A stretch of DNA of 34,247 bases, taken from the NCBI GenBank assembly GCA_045863215.1, contig BTUB01000001.1:1-34247 (forward strand), in the 5' to 3' direction. A model generated the notes under the pieces. That model saw only the letters and a list, made by a program, of their open reading frames with translations. It was not told the DNA's origin and ran no database searches. Both the position numbers and the translations under genes were made by a program. Shown in pieces: positions 8,200 to 29,460 of the stretch. Source of the DNA: Candidatus Babeliales bacterium. GTDB taxonomy: Bacteria; Babelota; Babeliae; Babelales; Vermiphilaceae. The stretch's first letter is position 1. Every line of letters begins with the position of its first letter.

Positions 8200-8805
8200 A
8201 TGAAGTATATGTACGCTGCCCTTTTATCACTGGGACTTCTGGCCACGGGACTTGCGCAGGCAAAAGCTGAAGAAACTAAAAAAACACACGTGATTAAAAA
8301 GAAAAGCACCAAAAAAGCAGCCAAGCCAAAAGCCAGAGCGGCAAAAGTTCAACCAAAAACTCGTAAATTAAAAGCAAAACCTAAAAAACAAGTTTATAAA
8401 AATGTTAAGCCGGCACGAAAACCGGCTGAAATAAAAGAATCAGTTCCTACAAAAACCGCTGAACCAATTTCGACCCCTAAAACTACTGAAGAAACCGCAT
8501 ATCAAAAATTCACCAATTGGCTCGGATTGGGAACCGGCGCAGGTACTGCCGCAAAACAAGCATTAGTGGGACACCACAGAGCAGCAGGCTATCATATTGG
8601 GCCTCGTGATTGGCATGATAATTTTCCTGACTGGTGGGTAAAACAAGGACGTGGATGGACCTCAGCCGATGTTAATGGCACCTGGTATTTTGGTGGCCAC
8701 CCGTATGAATGGTGGGAAAATAAAGCATTAAAAGGAGAATATGATTCATATTTCAAAAACGTAATTCGCCCTACATATTATCACGCACATCCTGAAAAGA
8801 GATAA
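8200..8805 (+). CDS. secreted lysine-rich protein with Trp-rich C-terminal domain
   Basis: GGAGAGAG upstream. The signal peptide MKYMYAALLSLGLLATGLAQA is followed by an H1-like K/A/P-rich stretch of about 70 aa (KKKSTKKAAKPKARAAKVQPKTRKLKAKPKK) and then a W/G/Y-rich globular end. A strong terminator follows. Confidence 0.6.
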   Translation: MKYMYAALLSLGLLATGLAQAKAEETKKTHVIKKKSTKKAAKPKARAAKVQPKTRKLKAKPKKQVYKNVKPARKPAEIKESVPTKTAEPISTPKTTEETAYQKFTNWLGLGTGAGTAAKQALVGHHRAAGYHIGPRDWHDNFPDWWVKQGRGWTSADVNGTWYFGGHPYEWWENKALKGEYDSYFKNVIRPTYYHAHPEKR

Positions 8806-8837: not shown

Positions 8838-9503
8838 TTATTCTTTAAAATTGAATGTTCCCTCACATACAATTTCATACAACGCTTTTCTCCCTGATGG
8901 TTTTTCACGGGCTTGCAAATCTGTAGAAAGTACTTTCACATCAGCCGGCTTGCCAATCACACACATAGCTTCAACTTGATAATTGTTAGGAATATTCAAC
9001 ACTTTTTGGGCTCTTTCATAATCAAAACCTCCCATCCCATGCACCACAAGCCCTTTCATATATCCTTGCAAAGTGAGATTTTGCCATGCAGCACCTGTAT
9101 CAAAACTATGGCACCGATTTACGCCACCATTTTTAGATACTCTTTTGGATACCATCACCACAAGTACCGATCCATTTTTACACCATTCTTGATTAAACGG
9201 TACCAATAAATCAAACATTGTATCCCATTCAGCCGTTCCACGATACGCATACATAAAGCGCCATGGTTGCTCATTAGATGATGAAGGAGCCCAGCGAGCC
9301 GCTTCAAAAAGAGGCATTAATTCTTGCTCAGTCACCACCTGGCCCGACATTGCTCTGGCAGACCATCGATTTAAAAAGAGACTATCTACCTCCGCCACCT
9401 CAGGCTGACGATTTGTTTTGATCATCGCAGAAGGATTCACACTGTAAATTGAGGTATTTAGCGCCATTAGAGACACACAAATGGCAAAAAAGATAAGATT
9501 CAT
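8838..9503 (-). CDS. nitroreductase-family flavoprotein with hydrophobic N-terminal leader
   Basis: LFLNRWSARAMSG...LMPLFEAARWAPSSSNEQPWRF matches the nitroreductase-fold signature (R-x-S-x-R ... A-P-S-x-x-N-x-Q-P-W-x-F). The first ~22 residues (MNLIFFAICVSLMALNTSIYS) look like a signal peptide or membrane anchor. Confidence 0.85.
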   Translation of the reverse strand: MNLIFFAICVSLMALNTSIYSVNPSAMIKTNRQPEVAEVDSLFLNRWSARAMSGQVVTEQELMPLFEAARWAPSSSNEQPWRFMYAYRGTAEWDTMFDLLVPFNQEWCKNGSVLVVMVSKRVSKNGGVNRCHSFDTGAAWQNLTLQGYMKGLVVHGMGGFDYERAQKVLNIPNNYQVEAMCVIGKPADVKVLSTDLQAREKPSGRKALYEIVCEGTFNFKE

Positions 9504-9675
9504 TTTTTTCTCCTTAAAAGGTTAAAAACTACTGATTTTTTACGGCATTAGCTTATCAAGGACCGGAACAAAATTATAGGGAAAAACTCTTGTTTTTCAC
9601 CATAAATAATTGCTATTATGAAATTGATACAGAGCCGTCCAGCTACGGAATTTGCATATTTGAAAGGAGAAAATT

Positions 9676-9960
9676 ATGAGATTTATATTAAAAATTATTT
9701 CTTTAGTAATGATCTTTGTAAGCATTACTAATTTTGCACATATTTATCACCAAACAAAAAGTTACGATCGGGTTGGCTATTGCTGTTATCGAGAAGATGG
9801 CACTTTTGTGCCTCAACAAACCATTCGTTGGGCAGATGATTTTGCCGATGAATGGCCACGACGCGGTGTTACCAATGAAGGCATAGTAGGCTTTGCTGAT
9901 ATGTCTGAACAACCGCTTATATCAGGCTTTGAACGAAGTGCTTACAACACTCCAAAGTAA
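9676..9960 (+). CDS. small secreted/membrane-anchored protein, unknown function
   Basis: AGGAG upstream. 94-aa ORF with a hydrophobic N-terminus (ILKIISLVMIFVSITNFA). It is the first of four same-strand genes (9676-11960). Confidence 0.5.
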   Translation: MRFILKIISLVMIFVSITNFAHIYHQTKSYDRVGYCCYREDGTFVPQQTIRWADDFADEWPRRGVTNEGIVGFADMSEQPLISGFERSAYNTPK

Positions 9961-10008
9961 TAAAAATGGAATAGGTAAAATAGACAAAAACGAAAATAGG
10001 AGAGTGAT

Positions 10009-10944
10009 ATGAATAAAAAAGTAATGAGTATAATCCTCCTGCTTCTTGCAGGAATTAACGGCCTTTCATTTGCACGAGGTGCTCGTGGTGGAGGCTTTGG
10101 TGGTGGCCGTGGTGGCTTTGGTGGAGGTCGCGGTGGAATCGCACGCGGTGGCGGATTTGCTGGTCGCGGATTCGGCGGGGGTAGAAGCTTTGGCGGTGGC
10201 CGTAGCTTTGGAGGAAGAAGTTTTGGTGGCGGTCGTAGTTTTGCCGGTGGAAGATCCGGATTTGCACGCCCTTCAGGATTCACCAGATCTGCAGGAATTT
10301 CAAGGCCAGGCGGTATCGCAACTCGTCCCGGGGGCATTTCTTCTAGGCCCGGTGGTATAAGCCGTCCCGGTGGAATTGGTACCCGTCCGGGTGGCATTTC
10401 TAGGCCAGGCGCCAGCACTCGTCCCGGCGGAATTTCAAGACCCGGCACTGGTACTCGTCCAGGCAGACCGGGTGATAGACCAGGAAGACCGGGCAACAGG
10501 CCAGGTAGACCAGGACATCCAGGAGATAGACCAGGTAGGCCTGGTGGACGTCATCGTGGAGACAGATTTGGTCGTCGTGGTGATAGATTTGGCCGTCGAG
10601 GAGATCGTTGGGCAGGTCGTGGCAGAAGATGGTGGGGCGGCTATTGGAATGGTGGCTGGTATGCACCAAGCTGGTGGTTATGGGGTTCATTGCCATTGTT
10701 AATCGGTGGCTTATGGTATTACAACGGTCTCACTTACCCGCAATGGCAAGAATATGCTGAATCAGATCCAGAGGTATACAATTATTACACTACCTATGTA
10801 GTACCTGCATATGAACAATATCAGGCTAATCCTTCATCAGTACAAACTAAGGATGTAGAAGTTCCAGAATATGATGATGAAGACTACAATTCAGAAGATG
10901 AAGAAGTAGAAGAAATAGAAAATAATGGAAACATTATTACGTAG
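10009..10944 (+). CDS. secreted, membrane-anchored Arg/Gly-rich repeat protein (RGG/GAR-box-like ectodomain, acidic tail)
   Basis: AGGAG upstream. After the signal peptide MNKKVMSIILLLLAGINGLSFA come four successive repeat modules: RGGGFGGGRGGFGGGRGG; GGGRSF x4; RPGGIS x~8; RPG(D/N/H) x~6; and RRGDRFG x3. These are followed by a W-rich/TM-like segment (WWLWGSLPLLIGGLWYY) and a D/E-rich C-terminus. Terminator downstream. Confidence 0.75.
   Translation: MNKKVMSIILLLLAGINGLSFARGARGGGFGGGRGGFGGGRGGIARGGGFAGRGFGGGRSFGGGRSFGGRSFGGGRSFAGGRSGFARPSGFTRSAGISRPGGIATRPGGISSRPGGISRPGGIGTRPGGISRPGASTRPGGISRPGTGTRPGRPGDRPGRPGNRPGRPGHPGDRPGRPGGRHRGDRFGRRGDRFGRRGDRWAGRGRRWWGGYWNGGWYAPSWWLWGSLPLLIGGLWYYNGLTYPQWQEYAESDPEVYNYYTTYVVPAYEQYQANPSSVQTKDVEVPEYDDEDYNSEDEEVEEIENNGNIIT
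10075..10630 (+). repeat. in-frame tandem repeat region (four repeat families) inside gene 10009-10944
   Basis: 15-21-nt periodic units encode GGRSF, RPGGIS, RPGD and RRGDRFG. The region is locally far more GC-rich than its surroundings. Confidence 0.7.
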
Positions 10945-10952
10945 TAAAAATG

Positions 10953-10980
10953 GGGCGGGAAGATTTCCCGCCCTTCTTAT
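10953..10980 (+). terminator. intrinsic terminator after the Arg/Gly-rich gene
   Basis: GGGCGGGAA-GAT-TTCCCGCCC (9-bp stem) followed by TTCTTATTT. Confidence 0.5.
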
Positions 10981-10991
10981 TTAGGAATGCC

Positions 10992-11288
10992 GTGAAAAAA
11001 AAATTATATATTTTTCTTTTAATCACCGGAAACATATATGCGATTAATGAGAATTGGTATATGGGTGGGCAACCCTATTATAATTTTGGCTCAAGTTATT
11101 ATAACAATTATGGCCAAAATTATTACTGGGGCGGTGATGGCTGGATATTCAAAACAGGTTATAAAGCTCCCACTGAGCGCTGCTGCAGACGCGTAAAATG
11201 CATTCGACCATGCACCTGGTGCAGAGCATATAGAAAATCTTTACCAATCGAAAATAATAGTTGTTGTAACGGGGTATGCCAACCCTAA
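10992..11288 (+). CDS. small secreted Tyr/Gly/Asn-rich protein with 8-Cys C-terminal module
   Basis: The track start at 10950 lies inside the terminator hairpin. The in-frame GTG at 10992 sits 4 nt after AGGAA and gives VKKKLYIFLLITGNIYA (signal-like). The C-terminus, CCRRVKCIRPCTWCRAYRKSLPIENNSCCNGVCQP, has 8 Cys. Confidence 0.45.
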   Translation: MKKKLYIFLLITGNIYAINENWYMGGQPYYNFGSSYYNNYGQNYYWGGDGWIFKTGYKAPTERCCRRVKCIRPCTWCRAYRKSLPIENNSCCNGVCQP

Positions 11289-11297
11289 GGAGATTTT

Positions 11298-11960
11298 ATG
11301 AAGCACTTGTTTTTACTGCTGGCCATGCTGGCAACAAGTCTATCTATAAATGCCGATCCATTTCCTCATCCGTGTGATGCAAATAGCCGAGTAACTAATA
11401 ATAAGTGTCGCAAAAGTTGCGGTGATGCGTGCGCTATGGCTGCAAAATGCGCCAACAATCATGGCTGCAATGCCAAAGAATGTGTGCCCTTTGCCAACTG
11501 TTGTTTGCAAAGATGTGGGCCCTTCACACGCATACTTCCGGGCGATTATGATTCATATAAGGAAACTAAGCATACTTTTTGGCATGTACCACCCTGCACT
11601 CCACGCAATGATTCAAAATTCAAAGGATATTTATATAAAGGCATGTGGTGGGATAATATGGGTGTACGCTTCTGGGCCTTTAGAAATAGCACTAATAATA
11701 CTATCACTATCCAGGCTTTAAGTGGGGGAGAAATTAAGGATATCCCAGCTGGTGATGTCGCAAACATCAACAGAGGAGAAAGCTATGCCTTTAGAGTGCA
11801 ATCTCCTGCTCGCCGCTTTGAACTCTTTAATAGCGATATGCATCATATTGAAGTGTTTATCAATATCCGGGGAGACTTGGATTATAGGGTTGAGCCTATA
11901 CTGGAAAAAACAGCCAAAAGAGGATCTGTACGCGATCAAGATATAATACCCCGGTTCTAA
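11298..11960 (+). CDS. secreted protein with Cys-rich N-terminal module
   Basis: AAGGAG upstream and signal peptide MKHLFLLLAMLATSLSINA. There are 11 Cys in the first ~60 mature residues (CDANSRVTNNKCRKSCGDACAMAAKCANNHGCNAKECVPFANCCLQRCG), followed by a ~140-aa Cys-free domain. Confidence 0.6.
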   Translation: MKHLFLLLAMLATSLSINADPFPHPCDANSRVTNNKCRKSCGDACAMAAKCANNHGCNAKECVPFANCCLQRCGPFTRILPGDYDSYKETKHTFWHVPPCTPRNDSKFKGYLYKGMWWDNMGVRFWAFRNSTNNTITIQALSGGEIKDIPAGDVANINRGESYAFRVQSPARRFELFNSDMHHIEVFINIRGDLDYRVEPILEKTAKRGSVRDQDIIPRF

Positions 11961-11997
11961 AGAATTCGACGTTTTAAACCCGCAAAGTAGCACATTT

Positions 11998-12029
11998 GGC
12001 CTCTTTTTAGACTATAAAAGGGGCCTTTT
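11998..12029 (+). terminator. hairpin + T-run after gene 11298-11960
   Basis: GGCCTCTTTT ... AAAAGGGGCC (10-bp stem with one G-U pair) followed by TTTT. It overlaps the last codons of the recombinase ORF on the opposite strand. Confidence 0.4.
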
Positions 12030-13637
12030 CATTGCCAAGACTTTACAATTAGAAAAATAAACACTCCCGTAGTATATCAGCCGGTAACGCCATACTATAG
12101 CTGCCAGGCCCCGGTATATGAAGTGTATCAACCCGTAATTTACCGCCCCGTGACAAAAAAACCACACTTTGGGTTCTCTTTTGGCACGCCATACATGACG
12201 ATCAGTACATTCTAGTATCAAATTAAAGGGCGAATGAGCCTCCCAGACGAGCTTTTCATCTTTTAGGCTCAAGTTCTGAAGTATCAGCTTGATTAATTGC
12301 CGTTTTTCCTCAACTTCAGAACTCATAAAAAGCTCATACGCTCGGGAAGTCAGATTCAGAACGTATTTAGCGGTAATATAATAATTGTCTTCTGCTTCTT
12401 GTAATTGCTCAAGGCGAATACTAATATCGGTTACTTGATCACGTAATGAAGTGTAAAATTTGTCATAAGCGCTCTCAGTAATTCTCCCTTTGAGTTTATC
12501 TAGGTAGAGATTATCCATCATCTTGGTGATTGTTTTTTGTTCTTGTATAAGCTTGTTAGTTTCTTTTTGATGGAATTCCATTTTGTCTTGATGAGAAGCA
12601 TTTAGTGTTTCAGTAAGTTCATCAAGAATTTCTGTAGGTAGCTGTAAGTTTTTAAATACAGCGCTCAATTGGCGGGTAATTTCTTCTTCTCGCAGCCATT
12701 TTGCGTCATGCTTGCCATTGTATTGGGTGCAGTGATAATACACATACCCTTTATGTATTTCGGGCGTAATAGATAGGCCGCAATGAGCACATCTAATTAA
12801 TCCGCGATAGATATAGGGCTTACCGGCAAATTTATATTTCTTTTTAGCAAAACTATTTTTCACAGCTTGAACATCCTCAAAAAGGGTGATGCAGATAATG
12901 GGAGGATATTTATGGGGATATAGTTTGCCTTTCACCAGCATTTGACCGTGGTAAAAAGGATTAGCCAGAACCTTACCCAAGTATCCTTTAGGCCATACGA
13001 TGCCATAATCAGCTTTTAATTTATTACAGGCCAGCTCTAATGAATAGGCGCCAGTGCCATACCATTCGAATACTTTTTGAATGATACGGGATTCATACTC
13101 ATCCACAACAACATCTGATTTACCATCTTCAGTTTTAACATTCTTATATCCGTAGGGAGCTTTAGCTAGCCATTCCCCACGGCGGAGCTTAGCCTCAATC
13201 GCGCGGCGCACGTTATCACTAATAGCATCTGAATAATATTTTGCTAATCCTAAGCTGATACCAAAATGAAATTTCTCAGCAGCAGAAATACGGCTATTGA
13301 TTATTTGCCCATCAGATACAAAATGCAATTCAACCTCATCTCGCAAAGCTTTTTCATACAGTTCAGAAACCCGTTTATCAAACATATTACGAGATAGGCG
13401 ATCAACCTTATCGCAGCATACGGCAATCTTTTGCTTTTGCTCGATTACAAAATCAAGAATGCCATCAAACTCATCGCGTTGATTTTTATAAGCACTTTCA
13501 TCAAAGCTAAAGCTTTTAAGGATCTCTAAGCTTTTATTTTCGCAATATCTTTCTAGGCGCAGCATTTGCGCAGGAAGTGAATTGCCGGCTTCCTTTTGTT
13601 CTTCAGTGCTTACACGGGCGATGAGAATAGCTTTCAT
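12012..13637 (-). CDS. large serine recombinase (resolvase domain + recombinase domain + zinc ribbon + coiled coil)
   Basis: The N-terminus MKAILIARVSTEEQ carries the catalytic Ser motif. Other elements are VDRLSRN, the recombinase-domain block PYGYK, the zinc ribbon CAHCG...YYHC and a long coiled-coil region. The last ~60 residues (VWFFCHGAVNYGLIHFIYRGLAAIVWRYRLIYYGSVYF...) are compositionally aberrant, so the true C-terminus is uncertain. Confidence 0.9.
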   Translation of the reverse strand: MKAILIARVSTEEQKEAGNSLPAQMLRLERYCENKSLEILKSFSFDESAYKNQRDEFDGILDFVIEQKQKIAVCCDKVDRLSRNMFDKRVSELYEKALRDEVELHFVSDGQIINSRISAAEKFHFGISLGLAKYYSDAISDNVRRAIEAKLRRGEWLAKAPYGYKNVKTEDGKSDVVVDEYESRIIQKVFEWYGTGAYSLELACNKLKADYGIVWPKGYLGKVLANPFYHGQMLVKGKLYPHKYPPIICITLFEDVQAVKNSFAKKKYKFAGKPYIYRGLIRCAHCGLSITPEIHKGYVYYHCTQYNGKHDAKWLREEEITRQLSAVFKNLQLPTEILDELTETLNASHQDKMEFHQKETNKLIQEQKTITKMMDNLYLDKLKGRITESAYDKFYTSLRDQVTDISIRLEQLQEAEDNYYITAKYVLNLTSRAYELFMSSEVEEKRQLIKLILQNLSLKDEKLVWEAHSPFNLILECTDRHVWRAKREPKVWFFCHGAVNYGLIHFIYRGLAAIVWRYRLIYYGSVYFSNCKVLAMKRPLL

Positions 13638-13818
13638 GAATATGTACCTGCTGTATGGTTGAAAAGTTTAGAACCGTAAGCAGTGTAATAAGAACAGAGA
13701 AATTTTCCAGAACCAATATACGTCCATCCATTTAATAGACATAAAGCACCAATACTGCGTTTTAAATTATAGCTGCGCATAAATTGCGTGTAAGTATATA
13801 AATAAAAATACCCGAAAA

Positions 13819-13856
13819 GGGGAAAGTGGGGGCTTGTGGGGGAGTATATTGTGGGG
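13819..13856 (+). other. G-quadruplex-type motif / triple GTGGGG repeat in the recombinase-nuclease divergent intergenic region
   Basis: GGGG-AAAGT-GGGGG-CTTGT-GGGGG-AGTATATTGT-GGGG: four G-runs of 4 or more with loops of 5, 5 and 10 nt, in an otherwise AT-rich spacer. Confidence 0.4.
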
Positions 13857-13996
13857 TCTATGCTGGCTTGGTCTTATAATAATTTCAAATAGAAACTTAA
13901 TGCCGTTTGGTACCCGATATTCGCTCAAGAGTTTATATTTTTTTAGATTAAGATAAAATAAATACAAAGGTTATAATCATTGTAAATGCAGGTTAT

Positions 13997-14812
13997 ATGA
14001 TTTCCAAATACAATCCTCAAAGAAAGCGAAATCTATTTTCTTTCTTTTCAGATAAGGCATATAAAATTAGTCGTTCAAAAATCGAAGATTTTATAAAATG
14101 TCCCCGATGCTTTTATTTGGATAGAAAATGCGGCACTAAGCAGCCACCATCTTTTCCATATACTCTCAATAATGCGATTGATGCTCTTTTAAAAAAAGAA
14201 TTTGATCAATATAGATTGAAAGAGGAAAGGCATTCTTTATTGATTCAGCATGGCATTGATGCGATTCCTTTTTCACATCCTGATTTAGAAGAATGGCGAG
14301 ATAATTTTAAGGGAATTAAATTTCATCATATCGCTACCAATTTAATTATTAGTGGGGCCATGGATGATATTTGGATTAAGCCTGATGGCGAACTAATTGT
14401 TGTTGATTTTAAAGCAACTAGTACAACCAAAGAGATTACTCTTGAAAAAAGGGATGCTTATAAAAGACAGCTAGAAGTCTATCAATGGTTGTTACGTCAA
14501 AATGGATTTAAGGTTTCCAATATTGGTTATTTTCTAATTTGCAATGGAGATTCAAGCGAAGCTGGATTCACGGGCAAACTTTCTTTTGATTTTTTATTAC
14601 TTCCACACGAAGGGAATGACTTTTGGATCGAAGATGCTTTAGTGCAAATAAAAGATTGTCTTGGCAAGAATACCATGCCTGCTATGTCAGAGAATTGTGA
14701 TTACTGCAAGTATTGGGAAGCTGTTAAAAAGCATATGTATTCCCATAACTTGTTACTGGAAAATTATTCCCGCGCACTTCCGAGATCAATACAGAAATTA
14801 TTTAGATTATGA
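13997..14812 (+). CDS. PD-(D/E)XK nuclease, Cas4/RecB-like with four-Cys cluster
   Basis: GAMDDIW (motif D), LIVVDFKAT (D-x-K) and QLEVYQWLL (Q-x3-Y) occur in the order typical of RecB/Cas4-family nucleases. An N-terminal C-P-R-C plus a C-terminal C-D-Y-C fits a Cas4/AddB-like Fe-S or Zn site. Confidence 0.7.
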   Translation: MISKYNPQRKRNLFSFFSDKAYKISRSKIEDFIKCPRCFYLDRKCGTKQPPSFPYTLNNAIDALLKKEFDQYRLKEERHSLLIQHGIDAIPFSHPDLEEWRDNFKGIKFHHIATNLIISGAMDDIWIKPDGELIVVDFKATSTTKEITLEKRDAYKRQLEVYQWLLRQNGFKVSNIGYFLICNGDSSEAGFTGKLSFDFLLLPHEGNDFWIEDALVQIKDCLGKNTMPAMSENCDYCKYWEAVKKHMYSHNLLLENYSRALPRSIQKLFRL

Positions 14813-14962
14813 TGTTTAAGAGATTTCAAAAGTAATACAAAAATAATGATAAGAATTCTTTATTATTACTATTTAAACAATAGTATACTTAGATACATAG
14901 CATATACTTTTTTATTTTTAGCGATTTTCTCTATTGTGTATCAAAGAGCAGGAGATTCTTTC

Positions 14963-15871
14963 ATGTTACAAACAAGCAAAAGTTCAACGAACAATGAACA
15001 AGTTACGTTTATTGACCTTTTTGCGGGAATTGGAGGATTTCATGTTGCATTACATCAGCTGGGTGGCAATTGTGTATATGCAAGTGAGTGGGATGAACAT
15101 GCGCGTAAAACCTATGAAGCAAATTTCTCCAAATTAAGTCCTGAATTATTTAAAGCAGGCTTATTTAGGGGCGATATTACACTGGATGAGAATCAGGCTT
15201 GTATCCCTGAAAATACAGATATTTTGTGTGCAGGTTTCCCATGCCAGCCCTTTAGCCAAGCAGGTGTTAAAAAGGGGTTCAATGAAACCAGAGGTACACT
15301 TTTTTTTGAAATAGCAAAAATAATAAAAGATAAGCGGCCCAAAGCCATTTTTCTTGAAAATGTACGTGGTCTTTTAAATCATGACAATGGAAAAACATTC
15401 GAAGTTATTCGCAATATCTTAGAAATTGAACTTAATTACACCATTTACTATAAAATCATAAAAGCTTCTGATTATGGATTGCCTACTCACAGGCCTCGTA
15501 TTTATATCATAGGCTTTAGAAGCGATGTTAAATACAAAAAAGATTTTAAGTTTCCTAATCCAATCCCTTTAAAATTTAACATGTCAGATATATTTAATAT
15601 GCCCTGCAATAAAGATGTCGGATATACTTTGAGAGTTGGTGGTAAGGGTTCAGGTATAAACGATAGAAGAAATTGGGATTCATATTTGGTAGGTGGAGCT
15701 GTTAAAAAAATAACGCCCTACGAAGGGAAAAAAATGATGGGTTTCCCTGACGATTTTATGTTTCCTGTAACTAATGCTCAGGCAATGAAACAATTAGGAA
15801 ATAGTGTTGCGATTGATCCGATCAGATTAACATCAGAAAAAATAATCGAAATTTTAAGGAAGTCTGCATGA
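14963..15871 (+). CDS. DNA (cytosine-5) methyltransferase, M.HpaII-like (probable CCGG specificity)
   Basis: The track start at 14846 adds a hydrophobic extension. The ATG at 14963 sits 8 nt after AGGAG. Motif I is FIDLFAGIGGF, motif IV GFPCQPFSQAG, motif VI FLENVRGL, motif VIII RPRIYIIGF and motif X QLGNSVA. The blocks SEWDE.A.KTYEANF and TRGTLFF match what I recall of M.HpaII. Confidence 0.92.
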   Translation: MLQTSKSSTNNEQVTFIDLFAGIGGFHVALHQLGGNCVYASEWDEHARKTYEANFSKLSPELFKAGLFRGDITLDENQACIPENTDILCAGFPCQPFSQAGVKKGFNETRGTLFFEIAKIIKDKRPKAIFLENVRGLLNHDNGKTFEVIRNILEIELNYTIYYKIIKASDYGLPTHRPRIYIIGFRSDVKYKKDFKFPNPIPLKFNMSDIFNMPCNKDVGYTLRVGGKGSGINDRRNWDSYLVGGAVKKITPYEGKKMMGFPDDFMFPVTNAQAMKQLGNSVAIDPIRLTSEKIIEILRKSA

Positions 15872-16932
15872 TACTTAAAAAAGGCAATAAAGGTGAATGG
15901 AGTGAGCTTTACGCCTTATTAAAAATATTATCTGATAAAGTTCTTTATTCTGCCGACGAAAATCTTGCATTAATTCCGAAAGCTTTTATAAAAGTACTTA
16001 ATGTTAAGCTGGAAGAGAAAGCTAATTTAATATACGAAATAGATCATATTAATGATCGAATTATCGTAAAAGAATATAATAATGTTATAGCATCTATACC
16101 TATTATTAAAATTTCTTCTAAATTATCGGCTATCCTAAAAAAAATTAAAATTGGCGCAGCATCTAAAGGCGCTTTTGAATTACTTGAAGCTCAAGAGCTC
16201 ATGACTGAAATTCATGCCAAAAAGCTTAAATCGGCAAGCACTTTAAAGGCTGATATGTATGTTACATATGAGGATCCAAGTACAGGTATGCAGCCGACAG
16301 AAGGGTTTAGTGTAAAGTCGCAGATAGGTGGAATGTCTACTTTGCTGAATGCTTCAGGTTCGACGAATTTCGAATTTAAAATAATTGAATCCATGCATTC
16401 TGAAAAAATAGGAAAAAAACCCTTAATAAGCTTAGAAAACATTTTGGCACCCAATCAGGTATTAGAATTTGTTGGTGTTTCTAATTCGAATTTTAAAGAG
16501 AATTTAGAAATGATTGATTCTCATATGCCATTAATTATTGCTGTAATGATAAAAGGATATTATTTGGGGTTTGGAAAAACTATTTCTCAATTAACCGAAT
16601 ATATTAAATTAATTAACCCATTAGAAAAATCTAAGTCGTCACATTTTTATGAGCATAAGATTCAAGAATTATTAAGAGCTGTTGCTTTTGGTATGCAGCC
16701 TGCAAAAATATGGACGGGTAATTATGAGGCACATGGCGGATATATTATCGTAAAAAAAAATGGTGAGTTAGCTTGTTATCATACTTATGACAGGGATAGT
16801 TTCGGTAAATTTCTCTATTTAAATACCAAATTTGAAACGCCCAGTCGTTCTAAACATTACTTTGGCGAGATTGAGCAAAGAAACGGCTCTAAATTTATTA
16901 AACTTAATTTGCAAATCAGATTTACGAGCTAA
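15868..16932 (+). CDS. type II restriction endonuclease, HpaII family
   Basis: The start overlaps the methyltransferase stop (ATGA). At 354 aa it is the size of R.HpaII. The N-terminal block KGNKGEWSELYALLKILSD matches the HpaII-family N-terminal signature as I remember it. An M.HpaII-like methylase lies upstream and vsr downstream. Confidence 0.72.
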   Translation: MILKKGNKGEWSELYALLKILSDKVLYSADENLALIPKAFIKVLNVKLEEKANLIYEIDHINDRIIVKEYNNVIASIPIIKISSKLSAILKKIKIGAASKGAFELLEAQELMTEIHAKKLKSASTLKADMYVTYEDPSTGMQPTEGFSVKSQIGGMSTLLNASGSTNFEFKIIESMHSEKIGKKPLISLENILAPNQVLEFVGVSNSNFKENLEMIDSHMPLIIAVMIKGYYLGFGKTISQLTEYIKLINPLEKSKSSHFYEHKIQELLRAVAFGMQPAKIWTGNYEAHGGYIIVKKNGELACYHTYDRDSFGKFLYLNTKFETPSRSKHYFGEIEQRNGSKFIKLNLQIRFTS

Positions 16933-16933
16933 T

Positions 16934-17353
16934 ATGGAAAATGCTCCAAATATAAGAAGCAAAATGATGGCAGCAGTAAAAAATAAAAATACTGCTCCTG
17001 AAATTAATGTACGTAAGGCTTTATACGCTAAGGGCATGCGATACAAATTGCATAATAAGAAATTACCTGGCAATCCTGATTTAGTATTTGCTAAATACAA
17101 AGCAGTTATATTTATTAATGGATGTTTTTGGCATAAACATAATTGCCGCCTGGTTCAAATTCCCCAAACAAATCAAGAGTTTTGGATTGATAAATTGAAT
17201 AAAAATGCCTACAGAGATGAAATGAATCTTGCTAAATTGCAAGAAATTGGATGGCGAGTAAAAGTTATTTGGCTTTGTGTTTTAAAAAATAAAAAGACTT
17301 TTTCTTCAGCAGAACAACTAGATGATATTGTTCAGTGGATAAAGCAATCATAG
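16934..17353 (+). CDS. vsr: very-short-patch repair endonuclease
   Basis: The track ORF starts at 16832, inside the REase gene. The ATG at 16934 lies 1 nt after the REase stop. The blocks NTAPEINVRKALYAKGMRYKLH, LPGNPDLVF and VIFINGCFWHKHNC are the canonical Vsr blocks. Confidence 0.9.
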   Translation: MENAPNIRSKMMAAVKNKNTAPEINVRKALYAKGMRYKLHNKKLPGNPDLVFAKYKAVIFINGCFWHKHNCRLVQIPQTNQEFWIDKLNKNAYRDEMNLAKLQEIGWRVKVIWLCVLKNKKTFSSAEQLDDIVQWIKQS

Positions 17354-17362
17354 CTCATATTC

Positions 17363-18481
17363 CTAAAAAGTTATTTGAGTAATTTTTTTAAGAATATGAG
17401 TTCGAATTATTTCAAAGAGTCTAGTAATATTAGAAAGCTTTATTTCTTTTGCATCTGCGTTAAGACGATTCCAGTCTCTTTGGTTGCGCTTGGATAGCAT
17501 GCCTCTCAATTCACGCACATTAACTATTTCAAGTGCTTTTGCCAATCCAAACATCTGTAGGATTTTTTTAGATCCAAGTTCAGGGTTATTTAAAATAATA
17601 TCACTTAGTAAAGCTTTATCGCTTACAGCCTTATAATTAAGCCAGACGGGCCGTTTGCTTCCTAACTCATCCAGATAATGCAAAAGAACTTTCTTAGAAA
17701 TAGCTGGCTTGAATAAGCTTTTTAAAGTTAAATTTGATTTAATCCCAAGTTTTGCAAATATTTGCTTCATCTTTGCCCGTTTATTAAGCCGCACTTCCAT
17801 GCGTAAAACCTCTAGCTTCTTTTTTTTGCGTAATCGTGGGAACATCTCAAGCTGGATTGCATTATCTTTCTCTATAGAGCGTTTTTCGCTTTGTTTTGCC
17901 TTTTCTAAATCCTTGAGCTTATCGTAAAAGACTATTTCATAAGAATTGCAGTGCCATTTATAGCTATGGCCTTCATTACGATAATCGGTTTGATTAGTAT
18001 CCAAACTCATCTTTATATTCGATTCCTTGATCTTATTTATATAGTGATAGGGGGTTGAGCCATCTTTAAGAATAATATTCTTGGAATAATGCACCGCAAC
18101 TATCGGAGCACGAACTAAATCAGCAGGAGCCACAATAACCTCCATTTGGCCTAAAGTATCAGATAGCCGTTGTAGTAGAGGCTGCAGATCTTTCCCTTTA
18201 AGCTCTTGGAAATTATTACCATAAAAGAGCTTGGGTAAGGAAAGTTCAACTTTCAATACTATATCAAGTGTATTACGTGTATTGGTTCTATAAGCAAGTG
18301 TGAGCCTTGGCTTATATATACCGGCAAGTAACTCTTTCTTAGTTGGATTTTGTTTTGATTGGATTCCGTGAACGGCACTTGATCTATTATTTGTAATCCA
18401 TCGTGCTGATGGCACAAATTTATCTGGATCAGTAATTTTATACATATCTGAAGAAAGAAGTAATACTACAGTATCGATCAT
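17363..18481 (-). CDS. rolling-circle replication initiator / relaxase-like protein (phage gpII - Rep_trans-like)
   Basis: The N-terminus MIDTVVLLL resembles the MIDMLVLRL start of filamentous-phage gpII. SLPKLFYGNNFQEL, YEIVFYDKLKDLEK (candidate catalytic Y-D-K) and LRMEVRLNK resemble conserved blocks of gene II/X and Rep_trans families. Motif-level recall only. Confidence 0.55.
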   Translation of the reverse strand: MIDTVVLLLSSDMYKITDPDKFVPSARWITNNRSSAVHGIQSKQNPTKKELLAGIYKPRLTLAYRTNTRNTLDIVLKVELSLPKLFYGNNFQELKGKDLQPLLQRLSDTLGQMEVIVAPADLVRAPIVAVHYSKNIILKDGSTPYHYINKIKESNIKMSLDTNQTDYRNEGHSYKWHCNSYEIVFYDKLKDLEKAKQSEKRSIEKDNAIQLEMFPRLRKKKKLEVLRMEVRLNKRAKMKQIFAKLGIKSNLTLKSLFKPAISKKVLLHYLDELGSKRPVWLNYKAVSDKALLSDIILNNPELGSKKILQMFGLAKALEIVNVRELRGMLSKRNQRDWNRLNADAKEIKLSNITRLFEIIRTHILKKITQITF

Positions 18482-18588
18482 GGCTGTGCTTAAATACTAA
18501 GGTGTAGATAATTATTAGTTGTTTAAGATAACCTGCAACTTAGGAAATACAAGATATTTTTAATTCAATATGTTAAGGAGATGGTTGA

Positions 18589-19557: not shown

Positions 19558-19581
19558 TAAAGTGATATTTAAATTGAAGAG

Positions 19582-19608
19582 GGCTCGCAGTTGTTGCGAG
19601 CCTTTTTT
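19582..19608 (+). terminator. intrinsic terminator
   Basis: GGCTCGCA-GTTGT-TGCGAGCC followed by TTTTTTATTTT, 25 nt after the stop at 19557. Confidence 0.7.
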
Positions 19609-20148
19609 ATTTTGCCCTAAAAGGGGATCTTTAGCTTTTCTTAATTTTGCTCTGTTTGTTTCTTTGCCCGGAGCGCTAATACGCCTATCAATTTGAACAA
19701 GCAAAGCCACAAATGCAGCAAATTTTTTACGATCGTTAACATTCAAAACAGGATTCGCGGGAGGGCGAATTGCTGCTCTTCTATTTCTACGCAACATATA
19801 CGCTCGATTCTAGACGCTCGAGTATCATCTATAGCTGATCAATACCAGCAAAAGGGTAAATTATTTTTAATTAAGAGAGATTGGGATTATTCGCTTTTAC
19901 TTAGGCAGGTATCCTGCTGTGTATGCCAACACCCGAGTTGTGAGATCAGATTCAGAGATCTGAGGAGATTTAACTGGTTCATTGCCTATTCCTTTGATGC
20001 AAAAACAGCTTATTACAATTGCGAGAAGTGTATTCAGTATTTTCATGGATGGCAAGAGAAAAATTTTTCTTTTTTCATTGTGTCATTTGATTTTATGCCT
20101 CACGCTTATTACCAGTAAATTTTAAATCTTTTTTAAAGGGACCCAATT

Positions 20149-20724: not shown

Positions 20725-20730
20725 TATCAT

Positions 20731-20760
20731 GGTGTTTTCAGTTTTAAAGCTGAAAACACC
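20731..20760 (+). terminator. 11-bp-stem hairpin after the HEPN-like gene
   Basis: GGTGTTTTCAG-TTTTAAAG-CTGAAAACACC followed by GTTTGG. The T-tract is weak, so terminator function is uncertain. Confidence 0.4.
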
Positions 20761-20984
20761 GTTTGGATGTGCGTTAAGCTAAAAGTGTATTTAATTTGGC
20801 CTTTACTGAACGTGTCAACTAAGTTACCCATGGCGCAGGATTTAGCTTTTGGTCATAAAAAATATAAAGGCGTGATTTGAAATAGAATCGTGACTTTAGA
20901 AATGGAAGTAGATAAAATTACATTTACCATAAAAACATAACCATTAACAAAAAATAGTTATTAACTTTTTCTAAATGACATCAT

Positions 20985-27963: not shown

Positions 27964-27979
27964 TTTTTAGAAGGACACC

Positions 27980-28702: not shown

Positions 28703-28715
28703 TTGGAACAGCTAA

Positions 28716-29450: not shown

Positions 29451-29460
29451 ATGGAGTTCT

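What the first reader, a model, noticed from the sequence alone, without database searches (positions are those of the whole stretch)
10009..10944. Secreted, membrane-anchored bacterial protein whose ectodomain mimics a eukaryotic RGG/GAR box
After a clear signal peptide, about 185 residues consist almost only of Arg/Gly modules. RGGGFGGGRGGFGGGRGG is essentially the glycine-arginine-rich motif of fibrillarin/nucleolin-type proteins. It is followed by GGGRSF x4, RPGGIS x~8, RPG(D/N/H) x~6 and RRGDRFG x3. Then come a Trp-rich/TM-like segment and a strongly acidic tail (EYDDEDYNSEDEEVEEIE).

The gene is a sharp GC-rich spike in an AT-rich region. RGG boxes in eukaryotes bind RNA, drive phase separation and are substrates of PRMT arginine methyltransferases. 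An exported bacterial copy next to ankyrin-type genes suggests host mimicry, or alternatively a nucleic-acid- or polyanion-binding surface layer. The nucleotide-level tandem repeats also make the gene a candidate for length variation.
Basis: partly seen in the sequence, partly recalled or inferred. Interest (0 to 1): 0.65.

Follow-up and report, generated by a model that had tools for sequence, protein, structure and literature searches.

The report
Exported arginine-glycine-rich disordered envelope protein
This is a real, strongly transcribed gene of an uncultured wastewater bacterium that encodes an exported, highly positively charged floppy protein from a tiny uncharacterised family, and its likeness to eukaryotic RGG boxes comes from amino-acid composition, not from mimicry or gene transfer.

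Summary
The ORF 10009-10944 (+) is real and is the coding strand. It has a ribosome-binding site, a canonical Sec signal peptide and a terminator-like hairpin. Intact orthologues exist, and the non-repeat parts are under purifying selection. In three wastewater metatranscriptomes its RNA contig is the deepest in the whole window.

The 185-residue Arg/Gly tract is confirmed (109 G+R, net +36). Only residues 22-54 meet formal RGG/GAR definitions. The GC spike is purely amino-acid driven, because GC3 is 0.29, the same as housekeeping genes.

The conserved, family-defining part is not the RG tract. It is a Trp/Gly-rich hydrophobic helix followed by a YPxW...VxPAYxQYQxNPxSV module. A scan of 1.84 billion protein clusters found about ten relatives, all in one clade of uncultured Pseudomonadota and at the same syntenic locus. 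Most of them carry His/Gly-rich arms instead of Arg/Gly-rich ones.

The gene sits in a co-transcribed cassette of small exported low-complexity and Cys-rich proteins whose domains are shuffled between relatives. These fusions argue that the acidic tail lies outside the cytoplasm, so a "TM anchor with cytoplasmic tail" is doubtful.

Most likely role (inferred): an abundant polycationic envelope or surface protein that binds polyanions or self-assembles. Host RGG mimicry is not supported. In-frame repeat-length variation between strains is confirmed.

The parts
9590..9619 (+). Candidate sigma-70 promoter for the operon (TTGTTT, 18 nt, TGc-TATTAT). Tentative.
   Evidence: Read from the sequence. 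The RNA contigs of two runs begin at 9643-9647, just downstream. The consensus scan did not list it because the -35 is weak.
9676..9960 (+). Upstream gene for a 94-aa exported protein with a CC motif. It is co-transcribed with the RG gene. In relatives its domain is fused to the C-terminus of the family core.
   Evidence: ORF. Orthologues in L003 and L009. It lies on the same RNA contig as the RG gene. Its mature domain matches the C-terminus of P0040 (E 2e-10) and of L006-254 (E 7e-8).
9998..10004 (+). Ribosome-binding site AGGAGAG, with 6 nt from GGAG to the ATG.
   Evidence: Sequence. An equivalent AGGAG lies upstream of the L003 orthologue.
10009..10944 (+). Coding sequence of the 311-aa Arg/Gly-rich exported protein. 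The mature form is about 30.7 kDa with pI about 11.
   Evidence: Intact orthologues of 283 aa (L003) and 297 aa (L009). Purifying selection. Transcribed.
10009..10074 (+). Sec-type signal peptide, residues 1-22. The n-region is MNKK, the h-region is VMSIILLLLAGI and the c-region is NGLSFA. Predicted cleavage is A22|R23.
   Evidence: Read from the sequence. Ala at -1 followed by 'RG' is conserved in all nine aligned family members. dN/dS is 0.07-0.13. AF2 models a helix at 3-26.
10072..10170 (+). The only stretch that meets formal GAR/RGG definitions (residues 22-54). The tri-RGG is at residues 34-48.
   Evidence: Regex test against the definitions quoted in PMC9957100.
10075..10629 (+). Polycationic, intrinsically disordered arm (residues 23-207). 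It holds the RGG/FGG, GGGRSF, RPGGIS, RPGx and RRGDRFG repeat blocks, has net charge +36, and varies in length between strains.
   Evidence: Composition. Tandem repeats. AF2 pLDDT is 32-54 with no secondary structure up to about residue 185. In-frame indels between strains. Orthologue lengths differ.
10630..10728 (+). Trp/Gly-rich hydrophobic segment (residues 208-240). Its core helix is about residues 219-238, SWWLWGSLPLLIGGLWYY. It may be a membrane-interface segment, a marginal TM segment or an oligomerisation element.
   Evidence: Wimley-White and Kyte-Doolittle scans. The Hessa-scale sum is +6.4 kcal/mol, which is marginal. AF2 models a helix at 219-238 with pLDDT about 70. Conserved across the family.
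10735..10842 (+). Family-defining juxta-helix module, YPxW...DP...YYxTxVxPAYxQYQxNPxSV (residues 243-278). It is predicted to form two short helices.
   Evidence: Alignments A4 and A5 show invariant W, Y, V-P-A-Y, Q and P. AF2 models helices at 243-250 and 254-273 with pLDDT 70-80. dN/dS is 0.19-0.48.
10843..10941 (+). Acidic tail (within residues 241-311, which have net charge -18). It ends in the conserved NGNII.
   Evidence: Across the family, tail charge grows with arm charge.
10952..10974 (+). G+C-rich hairpin followed by a T-rich tail. It looks like a terminator or attenuator, sits 8 nt after the stop codon and is conserved in L003.
   Evidence: In run X12 the RNA contig depth drops from 14 to 4 across it.
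10992..11288 (+). Downstream gene for a roughly 98-aa exported protein that is Tyr/Gly-rich and then Cys-rich. The likely true start is GTG 10992, with an AGGA ribosome-binding site at 10983, rather than ATG 10950, which lies inside the hairpin.
   Evidence: Orthologue N-termini in L003 and L009. It lies on the same RNA contig in runs X8 and X9.
11298..11960 (+). Downstream gene for a 220-aa exported protein with a Cys-rich N-terminal region and a C-terminal beta-type domain. In relatives that domain is fused to Gly-rich cassette proteins.
   Evidence: It is 83% identical in L003. Its C-terminal domain matches the C-terminus of L013-234 (E 9e-13).
8200..8805 (+). Neighbouring gene for a 201-aa exported protein with a Lys-rich arm and a Trp/Tyr-rich C-terminus bearing a related YFxxVIxPxY motif. 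It is also strongly transcribed and may be a distant paralogue of the cassette.
   Evidence: tblastn shows a cross-match to the L006 core. RNA contig depth is 15/14/8.
9942..10496 (-). Antisense Pro-rich ORF. It is a compositional shadow of the GGN/CGN/CCN codons, not a gene.
   Evidence: It has a TTG start and its ends are not conserved (in L003 the ORF spans 9244-9957). It reads through the + strand ribosome-binding site and signal peptide, which are under strong purifying selection in the + frame. Its third codon positions coincide with those of the + frame, so the substitution pattern cannot favour it (worked out from the coordinates).

Best explanation
The gene encodes an abundant protein exported by the Sec pathway. 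It belongs to a very small, uncharacterised, lineage-specific family found in uncultured Pseudomonadota from wastewater and bioreactors. These organisms are probably host-associated.

Proposed maturation and layout:
- Signal peptidase I probably cleaves after Ala22.
- The mature protein then has a 185-residue disordered polycationic arm (+36).
- Next comes the conserved family module, a Trp/Gly-rich hydrophobic helix plus two short Tyr/Gln/Pro-rich helices.
- It ends in an acidic tail (-18).

Shown by the analyses here:
- It is a real gene.
- It is transcribed.
- The signal sequence and the module are under purifying selection.
- The arm is fast-evolving low complexity whose repeats expand and contract in frame.
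- It lies in a conserved, co-transcribed cassette of small exported low-complexity and Cys-rich proteins that exchange domains.

Inferred:
- The whole mature protein reaches the extracytoplasmic side.
- The aromatic helix and module dock it to a membrane face and/or to partner cassette proteins.
- The cationic arm binds anionic polymers or surfaces through multivalent Arg contacts. Candidates are LPS, phospholipid head groups, peptidoglycan, exopolymers, eDNA or host glycans.
- The arm may also pair with the acidic tails of neighbouring molecules.
- Either way the result would be a dense envelope or surface layer, or an adhesive coat.

The RGG likeness is convergent composition, not eukaryotic mimicry.
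For: Gene reality and strand:
- RBS, ATG, signal peptide and a terminator-like hairpin are all present.
- Full-length orthologues exist in L003 (283 aa) and L009 (297 aa).
- dN/dS is 0.07-0.13 for the signal peptide and 0.19-0.48 for the C-terminal module.

Expression:
- One RNA contig covers 9643-11283 at word depth 21/20/14 in three metatranscriptomes.
- The pentose-phosphate genes of the same window sit at 0-5 in those runs.
- DNA runs are flat at 5-10 across the region.

Export:
- The n/h/c organisation is conserved, with a short h-region, a helix breaker, Ala at -1 and the boundary 'A|RG' in all nine aligned members.

Family:
- phmmer against 1.84e9 cluster representatives gave 29 hits at E<=1e-3, seven of them below 1e-10.
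- The true relatives share only the hydrophobic helix and the YPxW...VxPAYxQYQ module, and most have His/Gly-rich arms.
- Every relative whose contig I checked lies in the same syntenic locus.

Cassette and compartment:
- The neighbours all have signal peptides, and two of them are Cys-rich.
- The 94-aa domain and the 220-aa protein's beta domain occur either with their own signal peptide or fused C-terminal to family or cassette proteins (E 2e-10, 6e-30, 9e-13).

Disorder and charge:
- AF2 gives no structure for residues 27-185.
- The arm/tail charges are +36/-18, +31/-12 and +33/-18 in the RG orthologues, and +4..+11 / -1..-9 in the HGG paralogues.

Native origin:
- GC3 of the tract is 0.286, against 0.27-0.34 in housekeeping genes.
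Against: - No experiment or proteomic datum shows export, cleavage, location or any binding activity.
- The RNA evidence comes from assembled contigs with no strand information, and contig depth is a crude measure of abundance.
- Arg at +1 and +4 and 41 Arg in the exported part are unfavourable for Sec translocation by E. coli rules. This rests on established knowledge; the Sec-avoidance role of positive charges is summarised in PMC5875014.
- The charge dipole across the hydrophobic segment fits the positive-inside rule for a cytoplasmic arm.
- The hydrophobic segment could still act as a true TM anchor.
- The polyanion partner is unknown.
- The arm may be only a tolerated spacer, because relatives replace Arg with His.
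- Host association of the organism is inferred only from nearby Ank/LRR/Sel1 genes and the 1.6-Mb genome of a relative.
Confidence: 0.45

Rival explanations
1. This is a type I membrane protein: the signal peptide is cleaved, the RG arm is a periplasmic or surface ectodomain, residues about 220-238 form a stop-transfer TM helix in the inner membrane, and the acidic tail is cytoplasmic.
For: The signal peptide is canonical. The 19-residue segment has the best Wimley-White octanol score in the protein (-12.5 kcal/mol) and AF2 models it as a helix. It contains small-xxx-small packing motifs that are conserved in the family (WGATAALIGG).
Against: - Domains that carry their own signal peptide as stand-alone proteins are fused C-terminal to the tail in P0040, L006-254 and L013-234. 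That places the tail side outside the cytoplasm.
- The Hessa-scale sum for the segment is +3.6 to +7.4 kcal/mol across the family, which predicts poor stop-transfer.
- The flanks are the wrong way round for the positive-inside rule, with Arg-rich outside and acidic inside.
Confidence: 0.2
2. The function lies in the conserved helix and module. The RG tract is essentially a neutral, slippage-driven low-complexity spacer with no specific ligand. Under this view the protein is a small envelope or membrane component, like its 155-165-aa His/Gly paralogues.
For: The arm sequence is not conserved beyond close orthologues. Relatives have HGG or S/T/N/Q-rich arms of 67-76 residues. Strains differ by repeat indels. 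The RGD triplets are absent from L009.
Against: - The arm has stayed long (about 160-185 aa) and strongly cationic (+31 to +36) in three orthologues that diverge at dS 0.3-0.8.
- All indels are in frame, and the acidic tail grows with arm charge.
- Codon choice in the arm is biased towards GGT and CGT/AGA.
- These points suggest that composition and charge are maintained by selection.
Confidence: 0.15
3. Inverted topology. The N-terminal hydrophobic stretch is an uncleaved anchor, the RG arm is a cytoplasmic loop between two membrane segments, and the acidic tail is periplasmic. The arm would then bind RNA, DNA or polyphosphate at the inner face of the membrane, making it a true functional analogue of RGG proteins.
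For: The positive-inside rule fits: the loop is +36, both hydrophobic segments have Arg on the loop side, and the tail is -18. A tail outside the cytoplasm agrees with the fusion evidence. Arg immediately after the hydrophobic region disfavours Sec export (established knowledge).
Against: - The h-regions are only 9-14 residues long and are followed by Pro/Asn/Gly/Ser breakers and an invariant Ala at -1. That is the signature of a cleaved signal peptide, not of a 20-residue anchor.
- The N-terminus carries 2-3 Lys/Arg, which favours an N-in orientation.
- In the HGG paralogues the loop is only weakly charged.
Confidence: 0.08
4. Host mimicry. The protein is delivered to a eukaryotic host, where its RGG box binds host RNA, drives condensates or is methylated by PRMTs.
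For: A formal tri-RGG motif with Phe spacers, as in fibrillarin and nucleolin, lies at residues 34-48. Genes for ankyrin, LRR and Sel1 proteins occur in the same genomes.
Against: - The GAR-like stretch is 33 residues with 4 RGG. The nucleolar proteins have more than 10 (PMC9957100).
- No eukaryotic protein appears among the credible hits, and PDB gives only TDP-43 at E 7.6.
- GC3 is native.
- Relatives carry His instead of Arg in the arm.
- A Sec signal peptide is not a route into host cytosol.
- The Ank gene is 10 kb away, beyond a mobile island.
Confidence: 0.05
5. Periplasmic DNA binder linked to natural competence. The Arg-rich protein and the neighbouring Lys-rich exported protein would bind incoming DNA in the periplasm, next to a ComEC-like channel encoded 2-5 kb upstream.
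For: A multi-pass membrane protein at 7133-8113 has orthologues in L010-L012 with a weak Pfam 'Competence' (PF03772) hit. That gene arrangement is conserved. Polycations bind DNA.
Against: - Adjacency is conserved only within one clade, so it says little about function.
- The Pfam hit is weak.
- The 664-aa ORF next to the ComEC-like gene is deleted in the transcribed strain (joint 4661-6831).
- There is no ComEA-like helix-hairpin-helix domain.
- The nitroreductase gene between them is on the other strand.
Confidence: 0.04
6. The real gene is the antisense Pro-rich ORF 9942-10496 (-).
For: The reading frame is open for 184 codons in the window, and longer open frames exist in L003 and L009.
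Against: - An open antisense frame is expected for GGN/CGN/CCN-rich DNA.
- It has a TTG start and no ribosome-binding site, and its ends differ between orthologues.
- It does not cover the conserved C-terminal module.
- Its own C-terminus would be the reverse reading of the + strand signal peptide, which evolves at dN/dS 0.07-0.13 in the + frame.
Confidence: 0.02

Closest known systems
Eukaryotic RGG/GAR domains (fibrillarin, nucleolin, GAR1, FET proteins)
   Same: Residues 22-54 (ARGARGGGFGGGRGGFGGGRGGIARGGGFAGRG) meet the tri-RGG definition and use Phe spacers. The tract is disordered, Gly-rich and cationic (PMC9957100).
   Different: - There are only 4 RGG, against more than 10 in the nucleolar proteins.
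- The other roughly 150 residues are RS/RP-type repeats.
- The tract is preceded by a Sec signal peptide.
- There is no RNA-binding or methyltransferase domain.
- There is no sequence homology.
- Relatives replace Arg with His.
- Codon composition is native.
Polycationic surface adhesins with disordered basic regions: mycobacterial HBHA (Lys/Ala/Pro repeats) and Neisseria NHBA (Arg-rich region). Named from my own knowledge, not tested here.
   Same: These are exported or surface bacterial proteins whose basic low-complexity region binds sulfated glycans or DNA. The neighbouring 201-aa protein has an HBHA-like K/A/P-rich arm.
   Different: There is no homology. The arm here is far longer and Gly-rich. 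There is no lipobox or coiled coil. Surface exposure and heparin or DNA binding are untested.
Legionella collagen-like protein Lcl and other tandem-repeat envelope proteins with strain-variable repeat number. Named from my own knowledge.
   Same: A signal peptide, a Gly/Pro-rich repeat region whose copy number differs between strains, and a C-terminal non-repeat module.
   Different: The repeats are not strict G-X-Y triplets. GRP, GDRP and GNRP units are mixed, so a collagen triple helix is not expected. There are no Pfam collagen hits.
LbpB anionic domain of Moraxella and Neisseria (PMC11022072)
   Same: It is a secreted bacterial protein with a highly charged, low-complexity disordered domain that works through multivalent electrostatics, with condensate formation shown experimentally.
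   Different: The charge is the opposite sign (anionic). That domain is embedded in a folded lipoprotein with a known ligand. It is unrelated in sequence.
Plant secreted glycine-rich cell-wall proteins (signal peptide, Gly-rich repeats, sometimes a Cys-rich C-terminal domain). Named from my own knowledge.
   Same: The cassette as a whole resembles them: signal peptide, then Gly-rich arms with R, H, F, Y or W, sitting next to Cys-rich secreted proteins. This hints at a structural matrix role.
   Different: A different kingdom, no homology, and a Gram-negative envelope context.

Membership tests
Eukaryotic RGG/GAR box | Tri-RGG motif RGG(X0-4)RGG(X0-4)RGG (definition quoted in PMC9957100) | tested here: met
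   One match, residues 34-48, RGGFGGGRGGIARGG.
Eukaryotic RGG/GAR box | Long GAR domain as in fibrillarin, nucleolin and GAR1: 50 residues or more, with more than 10 RGG and few other residues | tested here: not met
   The GMF-like motif spans residues 22-54 (33 aa) with 4 RGG and 2 RG. A second motif at 182-205 has no RGG. The rest of the tract is RS/RP-type.
Eukaryotic RGG/GAR box | Intracellular nucleic-acid-binding context (RRM/KH or methyltransferase partner domains, nuclear or cytosolic location) or detectable homology to such proteins | tested here: not met
   An N-terminal Sec signal peptide is present. There are no Pfam or NCBIfam domains. phmmer against 1.84e9 clusters and against PDB found no credible eukaryotic relative.
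Eukaryotic RGG/GAR box | Arginine methylation by PRMTs, and RNA binding | not testable with these tools
   This needs biochemistry.
Sec (SPase I) signal peptide | Basic n-region, hydrophobic h-region of about 10-15 residues, polar c-region with small residues at -3 and -1 | tested here: met
   The layout is MNKK / VMSIILLLLAGI / NGLSFA|R, with Ser at -3 and Ala at -1. Ala at -1 is conserved in all nine aligned relatives. This was done by inspection, because no SignalP was available.
Sec (SPase I) signal peptide | Actual cleavage and export | not testable with these tools
   This needs N-terminal sequencing or fusion reporters. Arg at +1 and +4 is atypical.
Bitopic inner-membrane protein (stop-transfer TM anchor) | A hydrophobic segment of about 19 residues that is sufficient for membrane integration, with positive charges on its cytoplasmic flank | tested here: inconclusive
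   The Wimley-White octanol score is -12.5 kcal/mol and AF2 models a helix at 219-238. Against that, the Hessa-scale sum is +6.4 (+3.6 to +7.4 across the family) and the flank charges are reversed. Fusion evidence places the C-terminal side outside the cytoplasm.
Collagen-like triple-helix repeat proteins | Uninterrupted G-X-Y triplets | tested here: not met
   Residues 151-180 mix 3- and 4-residue units (GRP, GDRP, GNRP, GHP). There is no Pfam Collagen hit.
Known Trp/Gly repeat or glycine-zipper families (Pfam YXWGXW repeat, Gly-zipper/Rick_17kDa_Anti) | A match to the Pfam models | tested here: not met
   No Pfam family matched at E<=1 for the window protein or at E<=0.1 for the relatives.
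New family defined here (hydrophobic W/G helix plus YPxW...VxPAYxQYQxNPxSV module after a signal peptide and a Gly-rich basic arm) | Conserved module with invariant W, G, W, Y, V-P-A-Y, Q and P; signal peptide ending in A|RG; location in the syntenic cassette between transketolase and the cyclase-gnd-zwf-pgi genes | tested here: met
   Alignments A4 and A5. phmmer E values are 9e-26 to 2e-8 to P0024-P0030. Synteny is seen in L003, L006, L008, L009, L010 and L013.

The most novel reading that the evidence does not exclude
The cassette encodes a previously unknown kind of bacterial extracytoplasmic material. Diblock polyampholyte proteins (a +36 Arg/Gly arm, a docking helix and a -18 acidic tail) would self-coacervate, or coacervate with envelope polyanions, to form a condensate-like envelope or surface layer. 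Cys-rich and Tyr/Gly-rich partner proteins would cross-link or organise it. In effect this would be an exported, RGG-driven phase-separated coat in a host-associated bacterium.
Probability: 0.12. Interest if true: 0.8.

Novelty: new variant of a known kind. Interest (0 to 1): 0.5.

Why it matters
Exported bacterial proteins with Arg/Gly arms this long and this charged are very unusual. Such arms go against the usual charge rules for Sec substrates.

If the protein is truly exported and abundant, it becomes a natural test case in three areas:
- how polycationic disordered chains cross the Sec channel;
- what polycations do in a Gram-negative envelope;
- whether RGG-type multivalent chemistry (binding, coacervation) is used outside the cytoplasm.

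The work also defines a compact, strongly expressed, fast-evolving cassette of exported low-complexity proteins. It marks a clade of uncultured, probably protist-associated, Pseudomonadota common in wastewater systems.

It shows too that gene callers systematically shred such genes, so this kind of protein is under-counted in databases. JGI split the orthologue into three pieces, one on the wrong strand, and most database relatives are fragments.

As it stands the function is inferred, so the practical importance is moderate.

Tried and rejected
- A full-length word-indexed homologue search was swamped by low-complexity candidates. It returned only P0001, an architectural analogue, and did not even list the window protein itself.
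- The first genome-contig scan with the single protein found no relative.
- Pfam, NCBIfam, PDB sequence, Rfam and tRNA searches gave nothing informative for the gene, its neighbours or its relatives. The 4jqs match (E 0.011) was judged to be chance.
- AlphaFold2 gave only low-confidence helices, both on the single sequence and on a 10-sequence family alignment (mean pLDDT 51 and 55). I therefore ran no fold search.
- I tried using the third-codon-position substitution pattern to choose the strand. This fails, because the antisense ORF shares its third positions with the + frame. I used the signal peptide, the module dN/dS and ORF-end conservation instead.
- No strand-specific or raw-read RNA runs were available, only assembled contigs.
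- Taxonomy could not be refined beyond 'uncultured Pseudomonadota', taken from the record titles of the nearest GTDB genomes. Cluster look-ups carried no names.
- The RGD triplets as integrin-binding motifs were rejected, because they are not conserved in L009.
- Foreign (eukaryotic or HGT) origin of the GC spike was rejected, because GC3 is native.
- A collagen-like reading of the RPG repeats was rejected, because there is no strict triplet period.
- The literature searches found no described bacterial exported RGG protein or relative of this family.
Full report
**Observation**

The ORF 10009-10944 (+) exists exactly as described.
- It starts with ATG, 6 nt after a GGAG within AGGAGAG.
- It ends 8 nt before a G+C-rich hairpin with a T-rich tail at 10952-10974.
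- The protein has 311 residues.

The residue blocks are:

| Residues | Content |
|---|---|
| 1-22 | signal-peptide-like |
| 23-58 | RGG/FGG |
| 59-87 | GGGRSF-type |
| 88-150 | RPGGI(S/A/G) |
| 151-180 | RPG(D/N/H) |
| 181-207 | RRGDRFG x3 |
| 208-240 | 8 Trp in 33 residues |
| 241-311 | acidic tail |

- Residues 23-207 hold 68 Gly and 41 Arg, with net charge +36. The tail has net charge -18.
- G+R is 59% in that tract and 9.3% in the other 30 ORFs of the window, giving a binomial tail of about 1e-62.
- The GC spike is 0.574, against 0.31-0.45 elsewhere. The nucleotide tandem repeats have periods of 21 and 36. Both are real.

**Which strand**

The antisense ORF 9942-10496 is the frame whose third codon positions coincide with those of the + frame. 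So the fact that 22 of 25 strain substitutions fall on third positions does not discriminate between the strands.

Other evidence does:
- The + ORF is intact in two diverged orthologues, L003 at 283 aa and L009 at 297 aa.
- Its signal peptide evolves at dN/dS 0.07-0.13.
- Its C-terminal 72 residues, which the antisense ORF does not cover, evolve at dN/dS 0.19-0.48.
- The antisense ORF has a TTG start and no RBS.
- The antisense ORF's ends differ between genomes.

The antisense ORF is the expected shadow of GGN/CGN/CCN codons.

**Expression**

Runs holding this sequence are wastewater, bioreactor and sludge metagenomes and three metatranscriptomes.
- In the three RNA runs one assembled contig covers about 9643-11283. 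That is the upstream 94-aa gene, the RG gene and the downstream small gene.
- Its word depth is 21, 20 and 14. This is the highest anywhere in the 34-kb window.
- Transketolase, zwf, gnd and pgi are at 0-5 in the same runs.
- DNA runs are flat at 5-10, so this is not DNA carry-over.
- In run X12 the depth falls from 14 to 4 across the hairpin, which is compatible with partial termination.

Limits of this evidence: contigs carry no strand information, and their depth is a crude measure.

**Strain variation**

The transcribed strain and two DNA-run strains differ from the window by -3, +3 (three adjacent single-base insertions), -3, -9 and +36 nt within the repeat tract. All of these changes are in frame. 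The one single-base indel lies in the intergenic region. Orthologues have arms of different length.

**Origin of the GC spike**

GC at codon positions 1, 2 and 3 of the tract is 0.67, 0.85 and 0.29. GC3 of the housekeeping genes is 0.27-0.34. The spike is therefore purely a consequence of Gly, Arg and Pro codons. Nothing suggests foreign DNA.

**How RGG-like is it?**

- There is one tri-RGG, at residues 34-48.
- There is one GAR-type motif, at residues 22-54, with 4 RGG and 2 RG, 58% Gly, and Phe spacers.
- A second RG-type stretch at 182-205 has no RGG.
- In the remaining residues Arg is followed by Ser or Pro.
- Fibrillarin, nucleolin and GAR1 have more than 10 RGG over 50 residues or more (PMC9957100).

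So there is a short, genuine RGG motif inside a much larger Arg/Gly/Pro/Ser low-complexity arm.

**Relatives**

- Pfam, NCBIfam and PDB sequence searches found nothing.
- A word-indexed search with the whole protein was swamped by low-complexity candidates.
- A search with the C-terminal third found P0002, a 75-aa fragment. Its 449-kb contig (L003) carries the full syntenic orthologue. The JGI gene caller had split that gene into three pieces, one of them on the wrong strand.
- A filter-only HMMER scan of 1.84 billion cluster representatives gave just 29 hits at E<=1e-3 and seven below 1e-10.
- The credible relatives are P0024-P0030, P0033 and P0040, at 120-250 aa. They share a signal peptide ending in A|RG, a Gly-rich basic arm, a hydrophobic segment (WWxWGATAALxxGxWYxGGY) and a module T/YxxxWxExAxxDPxxxxYYxTxVxPAYxQYQxNPxSVP.
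- In most relatives the arm is His/Gly-rich, with 15-19 His and only 5-10 Arg.

The conserved, defining part of the family is therefore the helix plus the module. The arm drifts in composition.

**Locus**

Every relative whose contig I fetched lies in the same place. On one side are transketolase and a ComEC-like membrane protein. On the other are the cyclase, gnd, zwf and pgi genes. Within that place the relatives form part of a variable cassette of small genes.
- L009 carries both a 155-aa His/Gly paralogue (P0026) and the 297-aa RG orthologue. The window and L003 have lost the short paralogue.
- More distant genomes (L006, L010, L013, L014) have 349-408-aa proteins. These combine a signal peptide, an RGGGFGGG-type start, an S/T/N/Q/R-rich arm, a long Trp-rich region and a small beta domain. 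They also have 99-125-aa miniature versions.
- The nearest GTDB genomes by transketolase (70-74% identity) are titled 'uncultured Pseudomonadota bacterium'. One is a complete 1.6-Mb chromosome.
- Ank, LRR and Sel1/TPR genes flank the cassette in relatives.
- Many window ORFs have no Pfam match.

This picture fits a reduced, probably protist-associated lineage, but that is an inference.

**Compartment and topology**

The N-terminus is a textbook signal peptide. It has 2-3 basic residues, a 9-14-residue h-region, a Gly/Asn/Pro/Ser breaker and an invariant Ala at -1. An h-region that short argues against an uncleaved anchor.

Three results weaken it:

1. Fusion evidence.
   - The upstream 94-aa protein has its own signal peptide in the window, L003, L009, L008 and L010.
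   - In P0040 and L006-254 the same domain is fused C-terminal to the family module. The blastp E values are 2e-10 and 7e-8, and 6e-30 between P0040 and the L010 stand-alone protein.
   - The C-terminal beta domain of the downstream 220-aa protein (signal peptide plus a 12-Cys region) recurs at the C-terminus of the Gly-rich cassette protein L013-234 (E 9e-13).
   - The side C-terminal to the hydrophobic segment is therefore most simply extracytoplasmic.
2. Hydrophobicity. The position-independent Hessa-scale sum for the best 19-residue window is +6.4 kcal/mol here and +3.6 to +7.4 across the family. That predicts poor stop-transfer, although interfacial and octanol scales rate the segment highly.
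3. Flank charges. The flanks are Arg-rich on the N-side and acidic on the C-side. This is the opposite of what a type I anchor needs.

Two models remain:
- **Full export.** The aromatic helix acts as an interfacial, oligomerising or partner-binding element.
- **Cytoplasmic arm between two membrane segments.** This fits the positive-inside rule but conflicts with the signal-peptide features.

I favour full export. The caveat is that Arg at +1 and +4 and 41 Arg in the passenger are unfavourable for Sec in model organisms (established knowledge; see the Sec-avoidance discussion in PMC5875014).

AlphaFold2 predicts disorder for residues 27-185 and helices at 219-238, 243-250 and 254-273, with pLDDT at most about 80. 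That is too weak for fold comparison.

**Likely mechanism**

Shown here:
- The gene is strongly transcribed and is under selection.
- It belongs to a co-transcribed cassette of exported low-complexity and Cys-rich proteins that exchange domains.
- Its arm stays long and strongly cationic (+31 to +36) in three orthologues, despite repeat turnover.
- The negative charge of the tail rises with the positive charge of the arm. The pairs are +36/-18, +31/-12 and +33/-18 in the RG orthologues, against +4..+11 / -1..-9 in the HGG paralogues.

Inferred:
- The module docks the protein at a membrane face or onto cassette partners.
- The arm acts by multivalent electrostatic and cation-pi contacts with anionic envelope or external polymers.
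- The arm may also pair with the acidic tails of neighbouring molecules.
- The result would be a dense envelope or surface layer, or an adhesive coat.

The neighbouring 201-aa exported protein has a Lys/Ala/Pro-rich arm and a related C-terminal motif, and is also well transcribed. It suggests that this organism makes several exported polycations.

I put about 0.45 on this overall reading, and about 0.85-0.9 on 'real, expressed gene for a signal-peptide-bearing protein of a new family'.

**Comparison with known systems**

- It resembles eukaryotic GAR domains only in a 33-residue motif and in general chemistry.
- It fails the long-domain, context and homology criteria for membership.
- It is not collagen-like, because there is no strict triplet period.
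- It matches no Pfam Trp-repeat or glycine-zipper model.
- In function it is closest to bacterial polycationic or repeat-bearing envelope proteins (HBHA, NHBA, Lcl; my own knowledge). In principle it also resembles charged secreted disordered domains such as the LbpB anionic domain, for which condensate formation was shown (PMC11022072).
- None of these is related in sequence.

**Novelty and score**

- The family is undescribed and extremely rare: roughly ten to fifteen proteins, many of them fragments, among billions.
- The combination of a Sec signal peptide with a +36 Arg/Gly arm is unusual.
- The general kind, an exported low-complexity repeat protein of the envelope, is known. The striking host-mimicry idea is not supported, and the function remains inferred.
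- I rate it a new variant of a known kind, with interest 0.5.

Noticed in passing
window 12186-20825 (context 11947-20980): An 8.64-kb strain-specific island. It carries a large serine recombinase (12012-13637, -), a PD-(D/E)XK nuclease, a C5 cytosine methylase, an HpaII-type endonuclease, a Vsr nuclease and several ORFans. A 22-kb DNA contig of run X5 joins 12185 directly to 20826. L003 and the transcribed strain also lack the island. Window positions 11947-12056 are replaced by 265 other bases in X5.
   Followed up: partly
window 4661-6831: The 664-aa ORF 4816-6810 has no Pfam hit and sits next to the ComEC-like membrane protein. It is missing from the strain seen in the metatranscriptomes, where contigs in three runs join 4661 to 6831. 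It is a presence/absence polymorphism.
   Followed up: no
window 8200-8805: A 201-aa exported protein with a histone-H1/HBHA-like Lys/Ala/Pro-rich arm and a Trp/Tyr-rich C-terminus (YFKNVIRPTYY). That motif echoes the family module. RNA contig depth is 15/14/8, the third highest in the window. Orthologues exist in L003, L006, L008 and L009.
   Followed up: partly
window 4277-4621: A 114-aa signal-peptide protein with no family match. It has the second-highest RNA contig depth in the window (19.6/11/15).
   Followed up: no
window 10950-11288: The mechanical ORF start (ATG 10950) lies inside the terminator-like hairpin. The orthologues and an AGGA at 10983 point to GTG 10992 as the start of a roughly 98-aa exported Tyr/Gly-rich and Cys-rich protein.
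   Followed up: partly
L003 9377-10228; P0002, P0024, P0027-P0029, P0045, P0052-P0054: Gene callers shred these low-complexity genes. The JGI orthologue was called as 57 aa (+), 80 aa (-) and 75 aa (+). Most database relatives are N-terminally truncated or out-of-frame fragments. One fragment is labelled 'ABC-type taurine transport system substrate-binding protein' by its source. The family is therefore under-represented in protein databases.
   Followed up: yes
window 26235-30159: Four tandem paralogous genes of 232-256 aa. They have lipoprotein-type N-termini (LPACGPHY / LPSCKRP / LPACVPSY) and C-terminal hydrophobic segments, and no Pfam match. They were barely detected in the RNA runs.
   Followed up: no
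window 11684 (in gene 11298-11960): One RNA contig of run X12 lacks 19 nt here, which would frameshift the 220-aa Cys-rich protein in that variant. It could be an assembly artefact or a minority allele.
   Followed up: no
L002 4428-5582 (P0001); P0043: Proteins from unrelated metagenome contexts show the same order of parts: signal peptide, (RGG)n, RP-rich tract, GDRPGRPG repeats, Trp-rich stretch. Their C-terminal globular domains are different and they are not in the syntenic locus. The 'signal peptide plus RGG arm plus Trp-rich' architecture may therefore have arisen more than once.
   Followed up: partly
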